A stretch of 64,000 nucleotides of DNA from Octopus sinensis (taxonomy: Eukaryota). The notes beneath the pieces are model-generated. The model saw only the letters and a list, made by a program, of their open reading frames with translations, was not told the origin of the DNA and searched no databases. The stretch's first letter is position 1, and every line of letters starts with the position of its first letter. The position numbers and the translations under genes are program-made. The stretch is from NCBI RefSeq assembly GCF_006345805.1, contig NC_042997.1, forward strand, positions 108,934,001 through 108,998,000. The letters are read 5' to 3'. Below, one piece after another: positions 12,460-49,212 of this stretch.

Positions 12460-13672
12460 TGGTTAACACGAAAACGCAAATTAACTGCATCAATGTGATA
12501 AGTCTGTTCACCAAAGTCCCAACTGGTGAAGCACTACCGGTGATTCAAGAAAAACTAGTGACAGAGAACCATCTAAAAGAACGCAAGGAGCTAGATGGAA
12601 ATGTTGACCTTCTGCGTAGAAACTACTTACTTCAGTATGGACACTGACATATATATCGACAAAAGAGGGTTTGGCTATGGGTTCGCCATTATCACTGATA
12701 ATAGCTAATATATACATGGAATAGTTTGAGAATTTGGCTTTAGCATCAAAACCTCTAAAACCAACCCTATGGCTGCGATATGTTGCTGACACCTTCATAC
12801 TCTGGCCCCACCAGATCGTGCTGTTAGATCATGTGAACTCAATAAAGCCATCCATACAGTTCACAATGGAAAAGAAAAAGACAATCAGCTGACATTTCTG
12901 GACGTATTAATAACACGCACCAAGCTTGGATTCAGGACATCCGTATACCGCAAGCCGACCTTCACTGGAGGATACCTCAACTTCAAATCCCACCAACCAT
13001 ACAGTGTAAAAAAAATGGATTGCTCAGTGCTTAAAACATCGAGCAATGAATATACGTAGAAATCGTAGTACCCACCACGAAGAAATGACCAAGCTCAGTA
13101 ACAATCTATTAAGCAGCATCTACCCCAAAACATACTCTCCACTCAAATTATGAAGAAAAGTGAAGATAAAACCGATAAACTGTCCACAGTCTGTCTACCC
13201 CTATATGAAAAGCCTCTCCGAAAAGATACGAAAGATATGTGGCCCATATGACATCAGGACAGTATTCAAAAGTATTACAACACTTCGCAAATATCTCCTT
13301 GGAGTAAAACCACCAATAGATGAGAATATGACCAAGAACTGCGTGTACTCCATCCCATGCAGTTGTGGTAGGTTATACAAAGGCGAAACATGCCATCCCC
13401 TCAAAATAAGGGTAGAGGAACATCGCAAAGCTGTGACATGGGGAGATATTGATAAATTGGGTATAGCTGATCATGTATGGAAAAATGGAGACCACCTCCC
13501 TCTGTGGGATGAAGTTAAAATAATAGACAGAGAACACCACTGGAAAATACGAAAACTAAAAGAAGCAGCACATATGGTAGGACACAACAACCTCCTAAGC
13601 AGACCGAGTGCAGATATGAATAGCATATGGGAACCGGTAATAAGGAAGGATAAGAGAATATTAGATTTATAA
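12460..13672 (+). pseudogene. Penelope-like element (PLE) RT + GIY-YIG endonuclease, disrupted
   Basis: PLE RT motifs INVISLFTKVP, GLAMGSPLSLIIANIYME, WLRYVADTF, LTFLDVLITR and TSVYRKPTFTG occur across frameshifts. The C-terminal ORF 13160-13672 has CVYSIPCSCGRLYKGET...RVEEH...RKLKEAAH (GIY-YIG). Confidence 0.9.
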
Positions 13673-13701
13673 GCCCTAAAATTCACTTCATAATTGCCCA
13701 C

Positions 13702-13773
13702 GGACATATGGCGTAGTGCTTAAGAGCGTGGGCTACTAACCCAAGATTCCGAGTTCGATTCCAGGCAGTGACC
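13702..13773 (+). promoter_or_regulatory. tRNA-like cassette (Pol III A/B boxes) in the PLE 3' region
   Basis: A-box-like TGGCGTAGTGC (13709-13719), anticodon-like arm TGGG-CTACTAA-CCCA, B box GAGTTCGATTCC (13751-13762) and a degenerate acceptor stem GGACATA/AGTGACC. Confidence 0.7.
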
Positions 13774-13849
13774 TGATTAATAATAATAATAATAATAACA
13801 ACAACAACATCGAAAATGAATGAGAAGCTAGGTTCAAAATTTCCCTAAG

Positions 13850-13893
13850 ACACCTGATGAAGGTTGGAGAGTATAACGGCCGAAACGTTGTGT
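13850..13893 (+). ncRNA. minimal type I hammerhead ribozyme (PLE type)
   Basis: Stem I ACAC/GTGT, core CTGATGA plus an extra A, stem II GGTTG/CGGCC, GAAA, palindromic stem III AACGTT. Predicted GUU cleavage after 13889. Confidence 0.75.
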
Positions 13894-14375
13894 TAAGAAC
13901 AAACAAGATGAGCACAACTATCCACTGTAAATAATGCACTTGCACGTTATTTTCATTTTCACGAACAGGCTTTTCCGTTGACCGGATCAACTGGAACCCT
14001 GAAAGTCGTAAGCACGGATGCTGACACATAGATAGAGCGCCATTAAGCCATTCATGCATAGCGTCCAGAAAAATGGACGCCGGAAAAATTTCTATTGCTT
14101 GTTTAGTAAACTACGAATTGAGTTTATTTTTGGTATAGTCTGCCTCTAAACTAGTGCTCTGTAAGTGAGTAATTTTTCCTGTGTCCATTTTTCTGTGTGC
14201 TATACATTAAGGAGTTAATGGCATCACCTCCCCTTATGTGCCGCAGGCATTGTTATTGCTGGGTCGGGCTTAAATTATTCCGGACTGCTCATGTTCAGCT
14301 GCAGCAGCAACAGCATGAGCAAGAGCAGCAAGAGCAGCAGCAGCAAGAGCAGCAGCAACAGCCGTTCAAGAGTTT

Positions 14376-37698: not shown

Positions 37699-38009
37699 CA
37701 TGTTGATATCAATATAGAGTAGAAATAACGGAAAAATTAAAGGGGTGGAAGAAGGTTATTATAAGTCAAACAATTGTTTTCTGGAGGCTCAGCGATCAAT
37801 AATAGTTTTGGCAGATTTAGTTCATTACAAAATGCGGCCGTATGGATGCATTTAACATACGATAAGAAGAAGCCCGTCGCCAGCATAGAGAAGATCTTAC
37901 ATTTCAGATCTTAATGTAGCGAAGTTCAATCATGGAATATCTCTCTGCGCCCCCCACCCTCTCTCTCTCTTGACCCTCCTCCAACTCTTCTGCCTATATG
38001 TTTGTGCAC

Positions 38010-38190
38010 ACCTTTGAATGCAGTGTATGCCAGAAGGTTTGTAAATCCAACGGAAGACTCAAAAGACATATTAAGATCCACAAAGAGCAGAACTTATCTG
38101 CAACTCATGGTGGTCCAAATCGGAGGTACAATCTATGTGGGTGTCTTTTCAATATATTGTCTAATTTAAAAAGCCACATCAGATGCCATG
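38010..38190 (+). pseudogene. orphan pair of C2H2 zinc-finger motifs (second one degenerate)
   Basis: FECSVCQKVCKSNGRLKRHIKIH and YNLCGCLFNILSNLKSHIRCH in ORF 37998-38252. No TGEKP linker. Confidence 0.55.
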
Positions 38191-38197
38191 ATGGTTA

Positions 38198-38680
38198 TAC
38201 GTTCGCTATTTCCAGTAAATATCGGTACTTAGTTGTGCCATTTATTTACTAATTTGTGTATTTTTCCCTCACGGGCTACTTTTTACTGGAAGGCAATACT
38301 TTGTATTGCATTACTTCTTCACCGTTTCTCGTACTGTTAGCGTTCCGTATTTCAGTCGAGTGTGTTAGTATTTATGTGGTAACATCGTAGTTTCGTCTTG
38401 GTATATGTTTGGCTGAAGAAGGTAAAGCAAATATGGGTGAGAGACATATCTTGCAAAACCTGAAACCTGCAGGTACCACATTATCCATTTTCCGGGTGTT
38501 TCATCTTTCAGATGTTCTCCCTGGAGGTAAGACGGTTTTTTTTCTCTATTTTGTTGCAACACACACGCATTTTTACTAATACATACGCGGTGAAGCTACA
38601 CATTAGCGTCGTATTTTTTACGTTCGCTATTTCCAGTAAATATCGGTACTTAGTTGTGCCATTTATTTACTAATTTGTGT
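38198..38680 (+). mobile_element. 421-bp unit with 62-bp terminal direct repeat carrying a hammerhead (retrozyme- or pLTR-like)
   Basis: 38198-38259 is identical to 38619-38680. The HHR lies at 38410-38478 and the unit is followed by (TA)n. Confidence 0.7.
38410..38478 (+). ncRNA. type I hammerhead ribozyme
   Basis: Stem I TGG/CCA, core CTGAAGA (38413-38419), long stem II AGGT..GCAA-ATATG..CATAT-TTGC..ACCT, GAAA (38462-38465), palindromic stem III ACCTGCAGGT. Predicted GUA cleavage after 38475. Confidence 0.8.
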
Positions 38681-38704
38681 GTATATATATATATATATAT
38701 ATAT

Positions 38705-38756
<52 letters not shown>

Positions 38757-45249: not shown

Positions 45250-48200
45250 TCAGGTCTCCGCTTGGAGCTACTGGTAACATGTAACCCAGTACAACCTGTT
45301 ACATGGTCGGGTCGTTGGCGACTAAACTGGCAACCCCACCAAGATTTCTTGGTGAGGAGGGTGATTTGGACACCCTGCAGGACTAAAAACAAAACCTGTC
45401 AAAGGGCAGAGGAACTCTCTCATGAGTCAATGGCCATCCAAAATCCGGAGTGGAGCCCCTAAGGCGGTTGGATTGCGCCATGCGTGCCACCTTCCGGCAG
45501 CTCCTGCATCTTGGTCTACCCCCAGTCGTCTTGACTTTGTCTTGCCACTGGATCCGGCGCACCAGGACGAGAGAGTGAGGCTGATCCTGCGCAAGTCACC
45601 CTCACTATAATCCAAGTCACACGCATGTCACGACATCATGACGCCATGACACCATCCCAAAGTCCTGTGGCGATGGGGAAACGGCGAAGTAGCAGGTGAG
45701 GATACACTGGGAGCTGCAGTCGTGAACCCACACACAGGCGGCTCAGGACATGTGGTCGCCCCTCACTGAACTGAGGCAGCAGTGGAGTCCGGCAGCCTCC
45801 TGAGTGACCGAGCAGCCCTCTTCAGGATCGCTCTGCTCGCCTCCCCAGCATGAGGACGGGGCTAGAAAAGGTTGCCCTAAACATAGCCTGCCTCACCTCA
45901 CCCTGGTCAGCAAACCGCGGCTGGCGGGGATCCTTTCCAAGCGGTCGAAACAAAGAAAGAAGAAAACAAACTAAGGTGCTCACTTTCGCAACTTGGAACG
46001 TGAGAACTCTGCTTGACAACACCAAAGCGGACAGACCAGAGAGACGAACTGCCCTGGTGGCCAGAGAACTGAGCCGATACAGTGTCGATATTGCAGCACT
46101 GAGCGAGACCCGCCTTGCGGACAAAGGCCAGCTGACAGAGACAGGCGGCGGCTACACTTTCTTTTGGAGTGGTCGCAGCGGCGAAGAGCGTCGTGAGGCT
46201 GGTGTTGGTTTTGCCATTAAGTCAGTACACGTGCGGAAACTGGAAAGCCCCCCCGAGGGTATCAACGATCGGCTGATGAAGATGCAGCTCCCACTTGGAA
46301 ACAAGACTAGTGCGACCATCATCAGTGCTTACGCCCCCACCATGACCAACCCTGAAGAAGTTAAGGACAGGTTCTATGAGGAACTCGACTCCCTCATCAC
46401 GTCAGCCCAGCCTGGGAAGCTCATCCTCCTTGGGGATTTTAACGCCCGTGTCGGGACTGACCACCAAGCCTGGCATCGCGTACTGGGAAAGCAAGGAATC
46501 GGAAAGTGCAACAGCAACGGACAGCTCCTCCTGCGTGCGTGTGCCTCTCATGATCTTACCATCGCCAACACCTTGTTCCGTCTGCCAACACGCAACAAGA
46601 CATCATGGATGCATCCACGCTCCAAACACTGGCATCTGATAGATTACGTCATCGTCAGGGCGAAAGACAGGCGGGACGTGAGACTGGTCAAAGCCATGTG
46701 CGGAGCTGACTGCTGGACGGACCATCGCCTCATCATCTCCAGGATGGATTTCTACATCCGACCTAAGAGAAGACCACAGGGTCAGAAAGTGACGAGGAAG
46801 CTTAACATCACGAAATTAAAGAACCAGCTGACTGCACAAGATCTCCAGTCACGTATGGACAGTAAGCTGTTGGACATTCGGAGTGACCAGTCCAGCATCG
46901 ATGAGCAGTGGGAATCATTCAGGGACACGGTTCATTCCATCGCCCTTGAAACTCTGGGCCAAATACGAGGAACCACCAGGACTGGTTCGACGAAAACGAC
47001 CAGGAAATCCAAAAGCTCCTGGAAGAGAAACGCCGTCTGCTGCGGGCTCACCAAAATGACACCACCTGCACGGCAAAGAAGGCCGCTTTCAACAACATTC
47101 GCAGCACAGTCCAGGCTAAACTCCGCCTCATGCAAGACGCATGGTTAAGCGCCAAGGCGGATGAGATTCAGGGATACGCAGACAAACACGACACCAAGAA
47201 ATTCTACGAGGCGCTGAAAGCTGTCTATGGACCGCAGTTCTCCTTTGGATCAACCCCCCTGCTCAGCTCAGATGGAACCTCACTCCTGACTAACAAGAGG
47301 CTGATCCTGGAGAGATGGGCGGAGCACTTCAACATCGTGCTCAACCGACCAGCCCAGATCAACGAGGAAGCCATCGCACGACTCCCCCAGGTGCCGACAA
47401 ACCACGAGTTGGCTGTTCCCCCTGCAGTCGAGGAAGTGAGCAGAGCCATCAAAAAAATGTCCACCGGCAAAGCTCCAGGCTCTGACGCCATCCCTGCAGA
47501 GGTGTTCAAGTCGGGCGGCCCCACCATGATCAGTCAGCTCACCAGCCTGTTCCAGTCGATGTGGGACAGGGAACAACTCCCTCAAGATTTCCGGGACGCA
47601 ACAATCGTCCACATTTATAAGCGGAAAGGAGATCGGCAGTCCTGCGACAACCACCGAGGTACTTCCCTCTTGTCCATAGCAGGCAAGATCCTGGCCCGGG
47701 TCCTGCTTGACCGCCTTCTGGAACACTTGGAGCAAGGCCTTCTCCCTGAGAGCCAGTGTGGCTTCCGTGCGGGTCGAGGGACCACTGACATGATATTCGC
47801 CGCCCGCCAGCTCCAGGAGAAATTCATGGAGCAGCACCTTGACCTCTGCATGACCTTTGTTGACCTCACCAGGGCCTTTGATACAGTCAGTCGGGAGGGA
47901 CTATGGAAGGTCATGGGAAAATTTGGTTGCCCCAGCAAATTTATTGCAATTGTCCGCCAGTTCCACGACGGAATGACAGCCAGAATCCTTGAAGACGGCG
48001 ACTCATCTGAAGCCTTCCAGGTGACCAACGGAGTCAGGCAGGGCTGTGTCCTGGCCCCAACACTGTTCAGCATCATGTTCTCGGCAATGATGTCCGACGC
48101 CTTTAGGGACTGCAAGTCCGGTATCAACATCAAGTACAGGACAGACGGGAAACTTTTCAACTCCAGGAGATTGCAGGCTGTCACAAAGGTGAGGGAGATA

Positions 48201-49212
48201 GTCGTCAGAGACTTTCTCTTTGCTGACGACTGCGCCCTTAATGCAATCGATGAGCAGGAGATGCATCTCGAGATGGACAGGTTCTCATCAGCCTGTGACA
48301 ACTTCGGTCTCACCATCAGTGCAAAGAAAACCGAAGTGATGTTTCAGCCAGCCCCCGGCAAACAATACCATGAGCCTCAGATAAGGGTGAACGGACGGAT
48401 CCTACGAGTGGTGGAAAACTTCACCTACCTGGGCAGCACTCTCTCCTGCAATGCCAACATAGATGCTGAAACCATCAACAGAATCTCCAAGGCAAGCAGC
48501 GCGTTTGGGAGACTGCGAAAGAAAGTCTGGGAGCGGAGAGGAATCAGCCTCAACACCAAGCTGAAAGTCTACCGGGCAGTCGTGCTTACCACCCTACTAT
48601 ATGGCTGCGAGACGTGGACTGCTTACCGAAGGCACGAGCGCCAGATAAACCACTTCCATCTCAGGTGTCTTCGGAATCTCCTTCACATCCGCTGGCAGGA
48701 CAAAGTCCCAGACACGGAAGTTCTGAAGCAGGCAGATCTCCCTAGCACCATCACAATCATGCGCAAGGCCCAGCTGAGATGGGCGGGCCACGTCTCCCGC
48801 ATGTACGACACTCGCATCCCAAAACAGCTCTTCTACGGTGAACTCGGCCAGGGCAGGCGCAAAGTCGGAGGGCAGAAAAAGCGCTACAAGGATAGTCTCA
48901 AGGTCTCTCTCAAAGACTTCTCTATCGGAACAGAGACCTGGGAGACACTTGCTGCCAACCGCTCATCCTGGCGCAGCGCAATCACCGTGGGAGCAGGGAC
49001 AGCCGAGGAGGGACGGATTCGGTCAGCGGAGCAGAAACGTCAGATGCGTAAAGTCAGAGCCGCCTGCACCAGTAGCACTGCCCCTACCCACTTCTGCCCC
49101 ACCTGTGGGAGGGGCTTCCTTGCCCGGATTGGCCTCACCAGCCACCTCCGGTCTCATGGCGGCAGTTCCATCAGATGATGTCAGTTGGTCATCTTCGAAC
49201 CGAAGGACGAAC
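45250..49212 (+). mobile_element. near full-length RTE (BovB-like) LINE
   Basis: A GC-rich block sharply distinct from the AT-rich flanks, with an ~600-bp 5' UTR, APE+RT coding region and a short 3' UTR GGTCATCTTCGAACCGAAGGACGAAC. The 5' boundary is approximate. Confidence 0.93.
45850..49178 (+). CDS. RTE LINE APE endonuclease-reverse transcriptase polyprotein, split by one frameshift near 46965
   Basis: APE motifs TWNVRTL, ALSETR, SAYAPT, LGDFNARVG, IDYVIV and TDH. RT motifs KAPGSDAIP, QCGFRAGR, FVDLTRAFD, GVRQGCVLAP, FADD and YLGS. C-terminal CPTCGRGFLARIGLTSHLRSH zinc finger. Adding one base at ~46964 restores RNHQDWFDEND in frame with 47130-49178. Confidence 0.92.

What the first reader, a model, noticed from the sequence alone, without database searches (positions are those of the whole stretch)
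38198..38680. 421-bp retrozyme-like monomer: canonical hammerhead inside a terminally redundant unit
Seen: an exact 62-bp direct repeat 421 bp apart encloses a non-coding sequence with a well-formed HHR (long structured stem II, 10-nt palindromic stem III, GUA site). Established: metazoan non-LTR retrozymes are small HHR-bearing repeats that yield circular RNAs, and PLE insertions show partial tandem pLTRs. Inference: the 1.15-unit permuted structure is what reverse transcription going once around a ~421-nt circular RNA would leave. This is a candidate cephalopod circRNA-based retrozyme family.
Basis: partly seen in the sequence, partly recalled or inferred. Interest (0 to 1): 0.72.

Follow-up and report, generated by a model that had tools for sequence, protein, structure and literature searches.

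The report
Octopus hammerhead retrozyme, Penelope-type insertions
This is one shortened copy of a protein-free jumping repeat, present hundreds of times in a probable octopus genome, that carries a predicted self-cutting RNA motif and is likely pasted in by Penelope-type retrotransposon enzymes, probably from a circular RNA that has not been observed; the kind of element is already known from other animals.

Summary
The 62-bp repeat, 421-bp spacing and hammerhead are real. The locus is one copy of a dispersed non-coding family (432 matches to a hammerhead pattern) with a unit of about 430 bp; 421 results from a private deletion. The hammerhead stems covary across subfamilies down to about 77% identity. 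Copies are not circularly permuted. Their 3' ends are fixed at two sites about 64 nt apart and abut (TA)n, 5' ends are randomly truncated, and 56 of 59 head-to-head inverted insertions use each site once. This is Penelope-like (PLE) insertion anatomy, but no PLE ORF adjoins any of 93 5' flanks. The 62-bp redundancy is a chance truncation point, not a 'once-around' signature, and this copy has one ribozyme, so it cannot itself yield the circle. Copying runs through the cut site, and units within an insertion share variants, which favours repeated copying of one unit (likely a circle). No RNA circle, cleavage or partner enzyme was shown. Verdict: a new member of the animal non-LTR retrozymes. 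The scan reported the same kind of element and anatomy earlier, in this genome and others.

The parts
38198..38680 (+). Whole insertion: 5'-truncated 1.12-unit copy of the ~430-bp hammerhead repeat family
38198..38256 (+).
   Evidence: 5' ends of other copies are spread over the whole unit
38257..38677 (+). One full unit (421 bp here; 426-432 bp in the family)
38257..38312 (+). 'Tail' segment between the two fixed 3' ends; a private 14-nt deletion after 38312 removes the second end site (site B) in this copy
   Evidence: alignment A1; 62 of 212 arms end at site B
38405..38481 (+). Type I hammerhead motif: core CUGAAGA 38413-19, long stem II, GAAA 38462-65, predicted cut 38475/38476
   Evidence: activity untested
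38465..38474 (+). Palindromic stem III; four different palindromes of 6, 10 and 12 nt occur in subfamilies
   Evidence: 114 of 131 distinct-context hammerheads are perfect palindromes
38667..38680 (+). Fixed 3' end, site A (inferred main reverse-transcription start)
   Evidence: 145 of 212 arms end here
38681..38755 (.). (TA)n microsatellite, the inferred target
   Evidence: 205 of 212 arms have (TA)4 within 30 nt of the 3' end
37972..38195 (+). Unrelated zinc-finger-bearing host repeat; its last ~55 bp before its TA tail are missing here (inferred target-site deletion, no TSD seen)

Best explanation
The locus is a 5'-truncated copy of a dispersed, protein-free, ~430-bp hammerhead repeat family (an animal non-LTR retrozyme) that is likely inserted by the reverse transcriptase-endonuclease of a Penelope-like element, probably by copying one circular RNA unit repeatedly. 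SHOWN: dispersed family; no ORF; two fixed 3' ends; (TA)n at 3' ends; scattered 5' ends; head-to-tail arrays; head-to-head inversions with one end of each type; covarying hammerhead stems; inserts running through the cut site; units within one insertion alike. INFERRED: (1) a copy holding two hammerheads is transcribed, self-cleaves (likely as a dimer through the palindromic stem III) and the monomer is ligated into a circle. (2) A PLE protein, likely Neptune-type, nicks (TA)n and starts cDNA at site A. When both target strands are primed, the second cDNA starts at site B, about 64 nt further, giving the A+B inverted pair. (3) cDNA stops at random after 0.05 to more than 5 laps and is joined by microhomology, often with target deletion. 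This copy stopped after 1.12 laps, has one ribozyme and has lost site B, so it is likely a dead-end product. Odds: PLE-mobilised non-autonomous element about 0.9; circular template given that, about 0.7.
For: Family size: 140 exact hammerhead 21-mers, 550 exact 3'-region 23-mers, 432 loose hammerhead matches; reversed-pattern controls 0. Ends: of 212 arms, 145 end at A, 62 at B, 5 elsewhere; 56 of 59 inverted pairs are A+B (22/23, 19/21, 15/15 in three separately chosen samples); 84 of 94 single arms end at A. An autonomous Neptune-type family in the same genome (775-aa RT + GIY-YIG ORF) shows the same anatomy: of 30 ends, 11 short ends into TA, 17 tail then TA, 2 running on. Literature passages: tail on one of the inverted pLTRs (PMC3846280; PMC8557442); two internal RT starts and both strands cut and extended (PMC11167929). 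No ORF: 1 of 93 5' flanks has a PLE protein hit, on the opposite strand about 500 nt away. Read-through: 55 of 59 arms reaching 185 nt pass 215 nt, the cut lying at 199; 1 of 206 5' ends lies within 5 nt of the cut. One template: subfamily-diagnostic variants are concordant within an insertion 141 times against 11; 11 insertion-private variants are shared by all covering units, 4 of them across both arms. Hammerhead covariation; palindrome kept while its sequence and length changed.
Against: No RNA circle, cleavage or ligation was observed. No autonomous partner with DNA homology to the unit was found in 80 PLE-bearing loci (best E 0.19), so the partner is inferred from anatomy alone. In the one PLE tested in vitro, hammerhead cleavage was dispensable and unprocessed linear RNA was the main substrate (PMC11167929). 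Only 1 of 9 Xenopus retrozymes cleaved in vitro (bioRxiv 2026.07.22.740005). The hammerhead is not the MFE fold and has no Rfam hit. 83 private variants are not shared between units and 11 diagnostic sites are discordant; L186 has a block of 7 variants in only some units. Homogeneous arrays could also come from homogeneous master arrays or DNA-level duplication. Samples were picked by pattern, not at random, and cover 147 insertions of several hundred.
Confidence: 0.63

Rival explanations
1. Same non-autonomous, PLE-mobilised element, but the template is a linear, uncleaved multi-unit transcript from tandem master copies; circles, if made, are a by-product.
For: Accounts equally for fixed ends, read-through of the cut site and 5' truncation. 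Matches the Anolis PLE in vitro. 23 of 212 arms span two or more hammerheads and one array of at least 5 units runs off a contig end.
Against: Progeny can only be shorter than their source, yet several successive subfamilies each have homogeneous multi-unit arrays, and 11 private variants occur in every covering unit; this needs repeated monomer bottlenecks and re-expansion. It does not explain why the ribozyme stayed intact over about 23% divergence.
Confidence: 0.25
2. The template is a linear self-cleaved monomer, and the RT jumps precisely from its 5' end to the 3' end of the same or a sister molecule, giving tandem units without ligation.
For: Explains ribozyme conservation and homogeneous arrays without a circle.
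Against: Predicts stops or scars at the cut site; none seen (1 of 206 ends within 5 nt; hazard 0.23 per 100 nt there, no higher than nearby).
Confidence: 0.07
3. Debris of an ordinary autonomous PLE (solo or truncated pLTRs).
For: Ends, tail, inversions and TA target are all PLE features.
Against: Units follow each other head-to-tail with no ORF between; no ORF at 93 5' flanks; subfamilies at 75-85% identity are the same ~430-bp non-coding unit.
Confidence: 0.04
4. Unique local 62-bp duplication around a chance hammerhead-like motif.
For: The motif is not the MFE fold and has no Rfam hit.
Against: Hundreds of dispersed copies in which the 62 bp are simply the next unit; covariation.
Confidence: 0.01

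Closest known systems
Metazoan non-LTR retrozymes (Cervera and de la Pena 2020, PMC7229834: coral, Mytilus 350-390 bp, axolotl; Li, Clavereau and Pollet, bioRxiv 10.64898/2026.07.22.740005)
   Same: Small, low-GC (38%), non-coding tandem units with one type I hammerhead each; no LTR; PLEs in the same genome; already known in a mollusc.
   Different: No circRNA or cleavage shown here; mostly dispersed short inserts rather than long arrays; no TSD seen at this locus. The parts of those papers that I read argue the PLE link from co-occurrence and pLTR similarity, whereas here it is read from insertion ends; a homologous pLTR was not found.
Endonuclease-bearing Penelope-like elements, Neptune clade (PMC8557442, PMC3846280, PMC11167929, PMC4209133)
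   Same: Fixed 3' end with optional tail, random 5' truncation, partial tandems, head-to-head inversions with the tail on one arm, microsatellite target, hammerhead with palindromic helix III.
   Different: No ORF; tail about 64 nt against the 30-40 bp described; the whole element is one ~430-bp unit.
Plant LTR retrozymes (PMC4918200; search listing and description within the two papers above only)
   Same: Non-autonomous, hammerhead-bearing, circular RNA intermediate proposed.
   Different: Those have LTRs, type III hammerheads, PBS/PPT and 4-bp TSDs; none applies here.

Membership tests
Animal non-LTR retrozyme | Type I hammerhead in each unit | tested here: met
   Core and stems by inspection, covariation; no Rfam hit
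Animal non-LTR retrozyme | Short (150-450 bp) low-GC unit in head-to-tail copies | tested here: met
   ~430 bp, 38% GC, arrays up to at least 5 units
Animal non-LTR retrozyme | No protein coding, no LTR | tested here: met
   Longest stop-free frame 93 codons; no ORF at 93 flanks
Animal non-LTR retrozyme | At least two consecutive hammerheads ('active' criterion of Li et al.) | tested here: met
   Met by the family (23 of 212 arms, estimated from length); not met by the window copy, which has one
Animal non-LTR retrozyme | Self-cleavage of the RNA | not testable with these tools
   Needs in vitro transcription
Animal non-LTR retrozyme | Accumulates as monomeric circular RNA | tested here: inconclusive
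   Only assembled contigs were available; they cannot tell a circle from a tandem
Autonomous PLE (Neptune/Poseidon) | RT + GIY-YIG ORF between pLTRs | tested here: not met
PLE-type insertion anatomy | Fixed 3' end with optional tail; 5' truncation; head-to-head inversion with tail on one arm | tested here: met
   207 of 212 arms; 56 of 59 pairs
PLE-type insertion anatomy | Microsatellite (TA)n target bias | tested here: met
   205 of 212 arms; no genome-wide background was computed, and TA repeats are common in this genome
Derivative of a specific PLE pLTR | Sequence homology to the pLTR of an autonomous PLE | tested here: inconclusive
   None in 80 PLE-bearing loci, a small share of 5029 GIY-YIG candidates

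The most novel reading that the evidence does not exclude
A long-lived lineage of circular-RNA parasites that a PLE enzyme dimer copies by rolling-circle reverse transcription from two fixed start sites, one per nicked target strand. The near-strict A+B rule of inverted insertions and the variants shared across units and arms would be the genomic record of PLE twin priming on a circle, giving a 430-nt minimal substrate for testing how PLEs build tandem and inverted insertions.
Probability: 0.4. Interest if true: 0.68.

Novelty: new member of a known kind. Interest (0 to 1): 0.4.

Why it matters
That PLE enzymes mobilise animal retrozymes, and that they do so from circles, is proposed in the papers read but not shown there. 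This family gives insertion-site evidence for the PLE link and defines two exact start sites on a small RNA, in a genome with intact young Neptune ORFs, so enzyme-plus-template tests are straightforward. The window locus itself is an ordinary dead-end copy. Searches for 'retrozyme'+'cephalopod' and 'retrozyme'+'octopus' and two wider searches listed no paper whose title or abstract start describes a cephalopod retrozyme. The library is partial, Repbase/Dfam were not available, and supplements were not read.

Tried and rejected
Circular permutation of both ends: rejected, 3' ends are fixed. Rfam: no hammerhead hit at E up to 10; window-wide hits shown were microsatellite artefacts (150 of 189 listed). 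Partner search: GIY-YIG and Neptune loci showed no homology to the unit. A hammerhead upstream of the L135 ORF proved to be separated from it by TA repeats, so it was not credited to that PLE. PLE ORF fragments near family copies (L156, L181, L255, L072 and others) lie beyond TA tracts or kilobases away and were taken as neighbours (only L156 was read base by base). RNA: no RNA holder listed; 19 of 24 rows hold the stretch, none on record as RNA. Contigs from 7 of 8 laid runs cover parts of the unit, one 457-nt contig about one unit, with no joints across the donor-like site; not used as evidence. A 'one-lap' excess of stops at 400-470 nt (0.57-0.77 per 100 nt against 0.13-0.41 below) stays at about 0.45 beyond and coincides with an AT-rich junction suited to microhomology with (TA)n: inconclusive. 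Circular fold of one unit: z -3.5 against 60 shuffles, with the hammerhead not formed: weak, not relied on. Look-up of earlier findings by sequence was blank.

Full report
Observation. The repeat is exact over 62 bp, 38198-38259 and 38619-38680. Between the copies lies a type I hammerhead motif with core CUGAAGA (38413-19), a long interrupted stem II, GAAA, the palindrome ACCTGCAGGT and a GUA cut site at 38475. Rfam does not detect it and it is not the minimum-energy fold (-11.5 against -15.8 kcal/mol), so I tested it by comparison.

Family. A DNA search of the own genome (2.72 Gb) gave 1139 candidates, 40 scored, 93 matches. Exact patterns gave 140 hammerhead 21-mers, 550 3'-region 23-mers and 131 tail 26-mers; a looser hammerhead pattern gave 432. 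Reversed controls were 0. The host is inferred to be an octopus from genome size and repeat style and from earlier scan notes; no call names it. I fetched 100 loci chosen by full-unit or hammerhead match, 60 chosen by 3'-region or tail match, and 20 from more distant subfamilies. The unit is about 426-432 bp. The window's 421 comes from a private 14-nt deletion plus small insertions. Young copies differ 1.3% from the majority base; older subfamilies fall to 75-85% identity yet keep the same non-coding unit and ends.

The hammerhead is under selection. Over 12 distinct sequences from all subfamilies, 98.5% of 271 cells pair and 6 of 23 pairs, in stems I and II, change on both sides; slid controls pair 23-39% (similar on 9 full units). 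I drew the structure and chose the rows, and they are related, so the shuffle counts (0 of 500) are indicative only. Stem III is a perfect palindrome in 114 of 131 distinct-context copies, in four versions of 6, 10 and 12 nt. Older subfamilies have CUGAUGA and often GUC; the window's subfamily has CUGAAGA and GUA. Palindromic helix III permitting dimeric cleavage is described in PMC4209133 (passages).

Insertion anatomy. In the first 160 loci I delimited 212 arms; a few are segmental or assembly duplicates and were kept in this count but dropped. Of these, 145 end at site A (window 38677-80), 62 at site B about 64 nt into the next unit, and 5 elsewhere; 205 have (TA)4 at the 3' end. 5' ends scatter over the whole unit and lengths run from about 25 bp to over 5 units. 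Of 59 head-to-head inverted pairs, 56 have one A and one B end (22/23, 19/21 and 15/15 by sample; the last sample was chosen on the tail), while 84 of 94 single arms end at A. This is not circular permutation. It is the PLE pattern: tail on one of the inverted pLTRs (PMC3846280, passages; PMC8557442, passages), and two internal RT starts with both strands cut and extended (PMC11167929, main text parts 1-2 of 4). An autonomous Neptune-type family here shows the same two ends into TA (11 short, 17 tailed, 2 continuing, of 30). The clade name rests on the cysteine linker between RT and GIY-YIG seen, read against PMC8557442; no tree was built.

No ORF and no identified partner. One of 93 non-inverted 5' flanks has a PLE protein hit, on the other strand about 500 nt away. 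Fifteen flank pairs share sequence up to the junction; they look like duplicates or common host repeats, judged from identity and printed ends and not annotated. Eighty PLE-bearing loci show no significant homology to the unit, a small sample of 5029 GIY-YIG candidates.

Template. The cut site lies 199 nt upstream of site A. Of 59 arms reaching 185 nt, 55 pass 215 nt, and the stop rate there is not raised (82 arms from C1, C2 and part of C3). One of 206 5' ends lies within 5 nt of the cut (the hammerhead-chosen sample depletes such ends). A plain cleaved linear monomer is thus unlikely. Among 147 insertions, 68 with at least 30 doubly covered sites, diagnostic variants agree within an insertion 141 times against 11. 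Eleven private variants are in all covering units, 4 of them across both arms; 83 private variants are not shared, as expected for post-insertion mutation, though L186 has 7 in a subset of units. This favours repeated copying of one unit, which a circle gives simply. It does not exclude homogeneous linear masters, and the Anolis PLE used unprocessed RNA in vitro. RNA data could not decide.

This locus. It is a single A-ended arm of 1.12 units. It sits at the end of a zinc-finger-bearing host repeat whose last ~55 bp before its TA tail, present in 9 of 9 other copies viewed (truncated in one), are absent here. I infer priming in the TA tail with target deletion. With one hammerhead and site B deleted it is likely inert as a source.

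Comparison. It meets the sequence-level definition of an animal non-LTR retrozyme (PMC7229834: passages and parts 3-4 of 6; bioRxiv 2026.07.22.740005: parts 1-3 of 5; supplements not seen). The RNA-level features are untested. It works like a PLE insert but is not an autonomous PLE. PMC13282606 (passages) lists PLE families in Octopus vulgaris and has no occurrence of 'ribozyme'. After reaching this reading I looked up earlier scan notes: 52 findings in at least 4 genomes hold the same keywords, and the 8 shown report octopus retrozymes with PLE-type footprints, one with the two-armed pattern in this genome. They are unchecked AI notes and not independent support.

Verdict. Real feature, new member of a known kind, interest 0.4. 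The value lies in the family's insertion record, not in this copy's 62-bp redundancy.

Noticed in passing
L149:4690-5400 (G000:C1665): A second, largely unrelated hammerhead-bearing non-coding repeat of about 490 bp with an inverted arm and TA ends, beside a broken Neptune-type PLE; shares one 15-mer with this unit (E 0.34).
   Followed up: partly
window 12700-13900: Broken PLE remnant (Poseidon-like by recall) with a 172-aa GIY-YIG-like frame at 13154-13672 (no Pfam hit) and a minimal hammerhead-like motif near 13855-13892.
   Followed up: partly
window 45808-49178: Two overlapping long frames (446 and 742 aa) that read like the endonuclease and RT of an RTE-type LINE (recalled, not scanned); nearly intact.
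   Followed up: no
L131, L135, L211-L240: Young Neptune-type PLE families with intact 775-781 aa ORFs; my motif scan found no hammerhead in 30 loci of the L135 family (within about 1.5 kb of the matched ORF part), although hammerheads are described as general for this clade.
   Followed up: partly
window 38524-38532: A splice-donor-like GAG|GTAAGA conserved in most subfamily units viewed, with a possible branch point and acceptor in the next unit; no spliced joint in the contigs laid.
   Followed up: partly
window 37972-38195: High-copy (2450 candidates) short repeat encoding C2H2 zinc-finger-like motifs and ending in a TA tail; type not identified.
   Followed up: partly
L104, L109, L133, L135 flanks: Further hammerheads with long stem II and palindromic stem III, so the genome likely holds several such families.
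   Followed up: no
G000:C8850:160557-162800: Array of at least 5 units that runs off the contig end; a possible longer master array.
   Followed up: no
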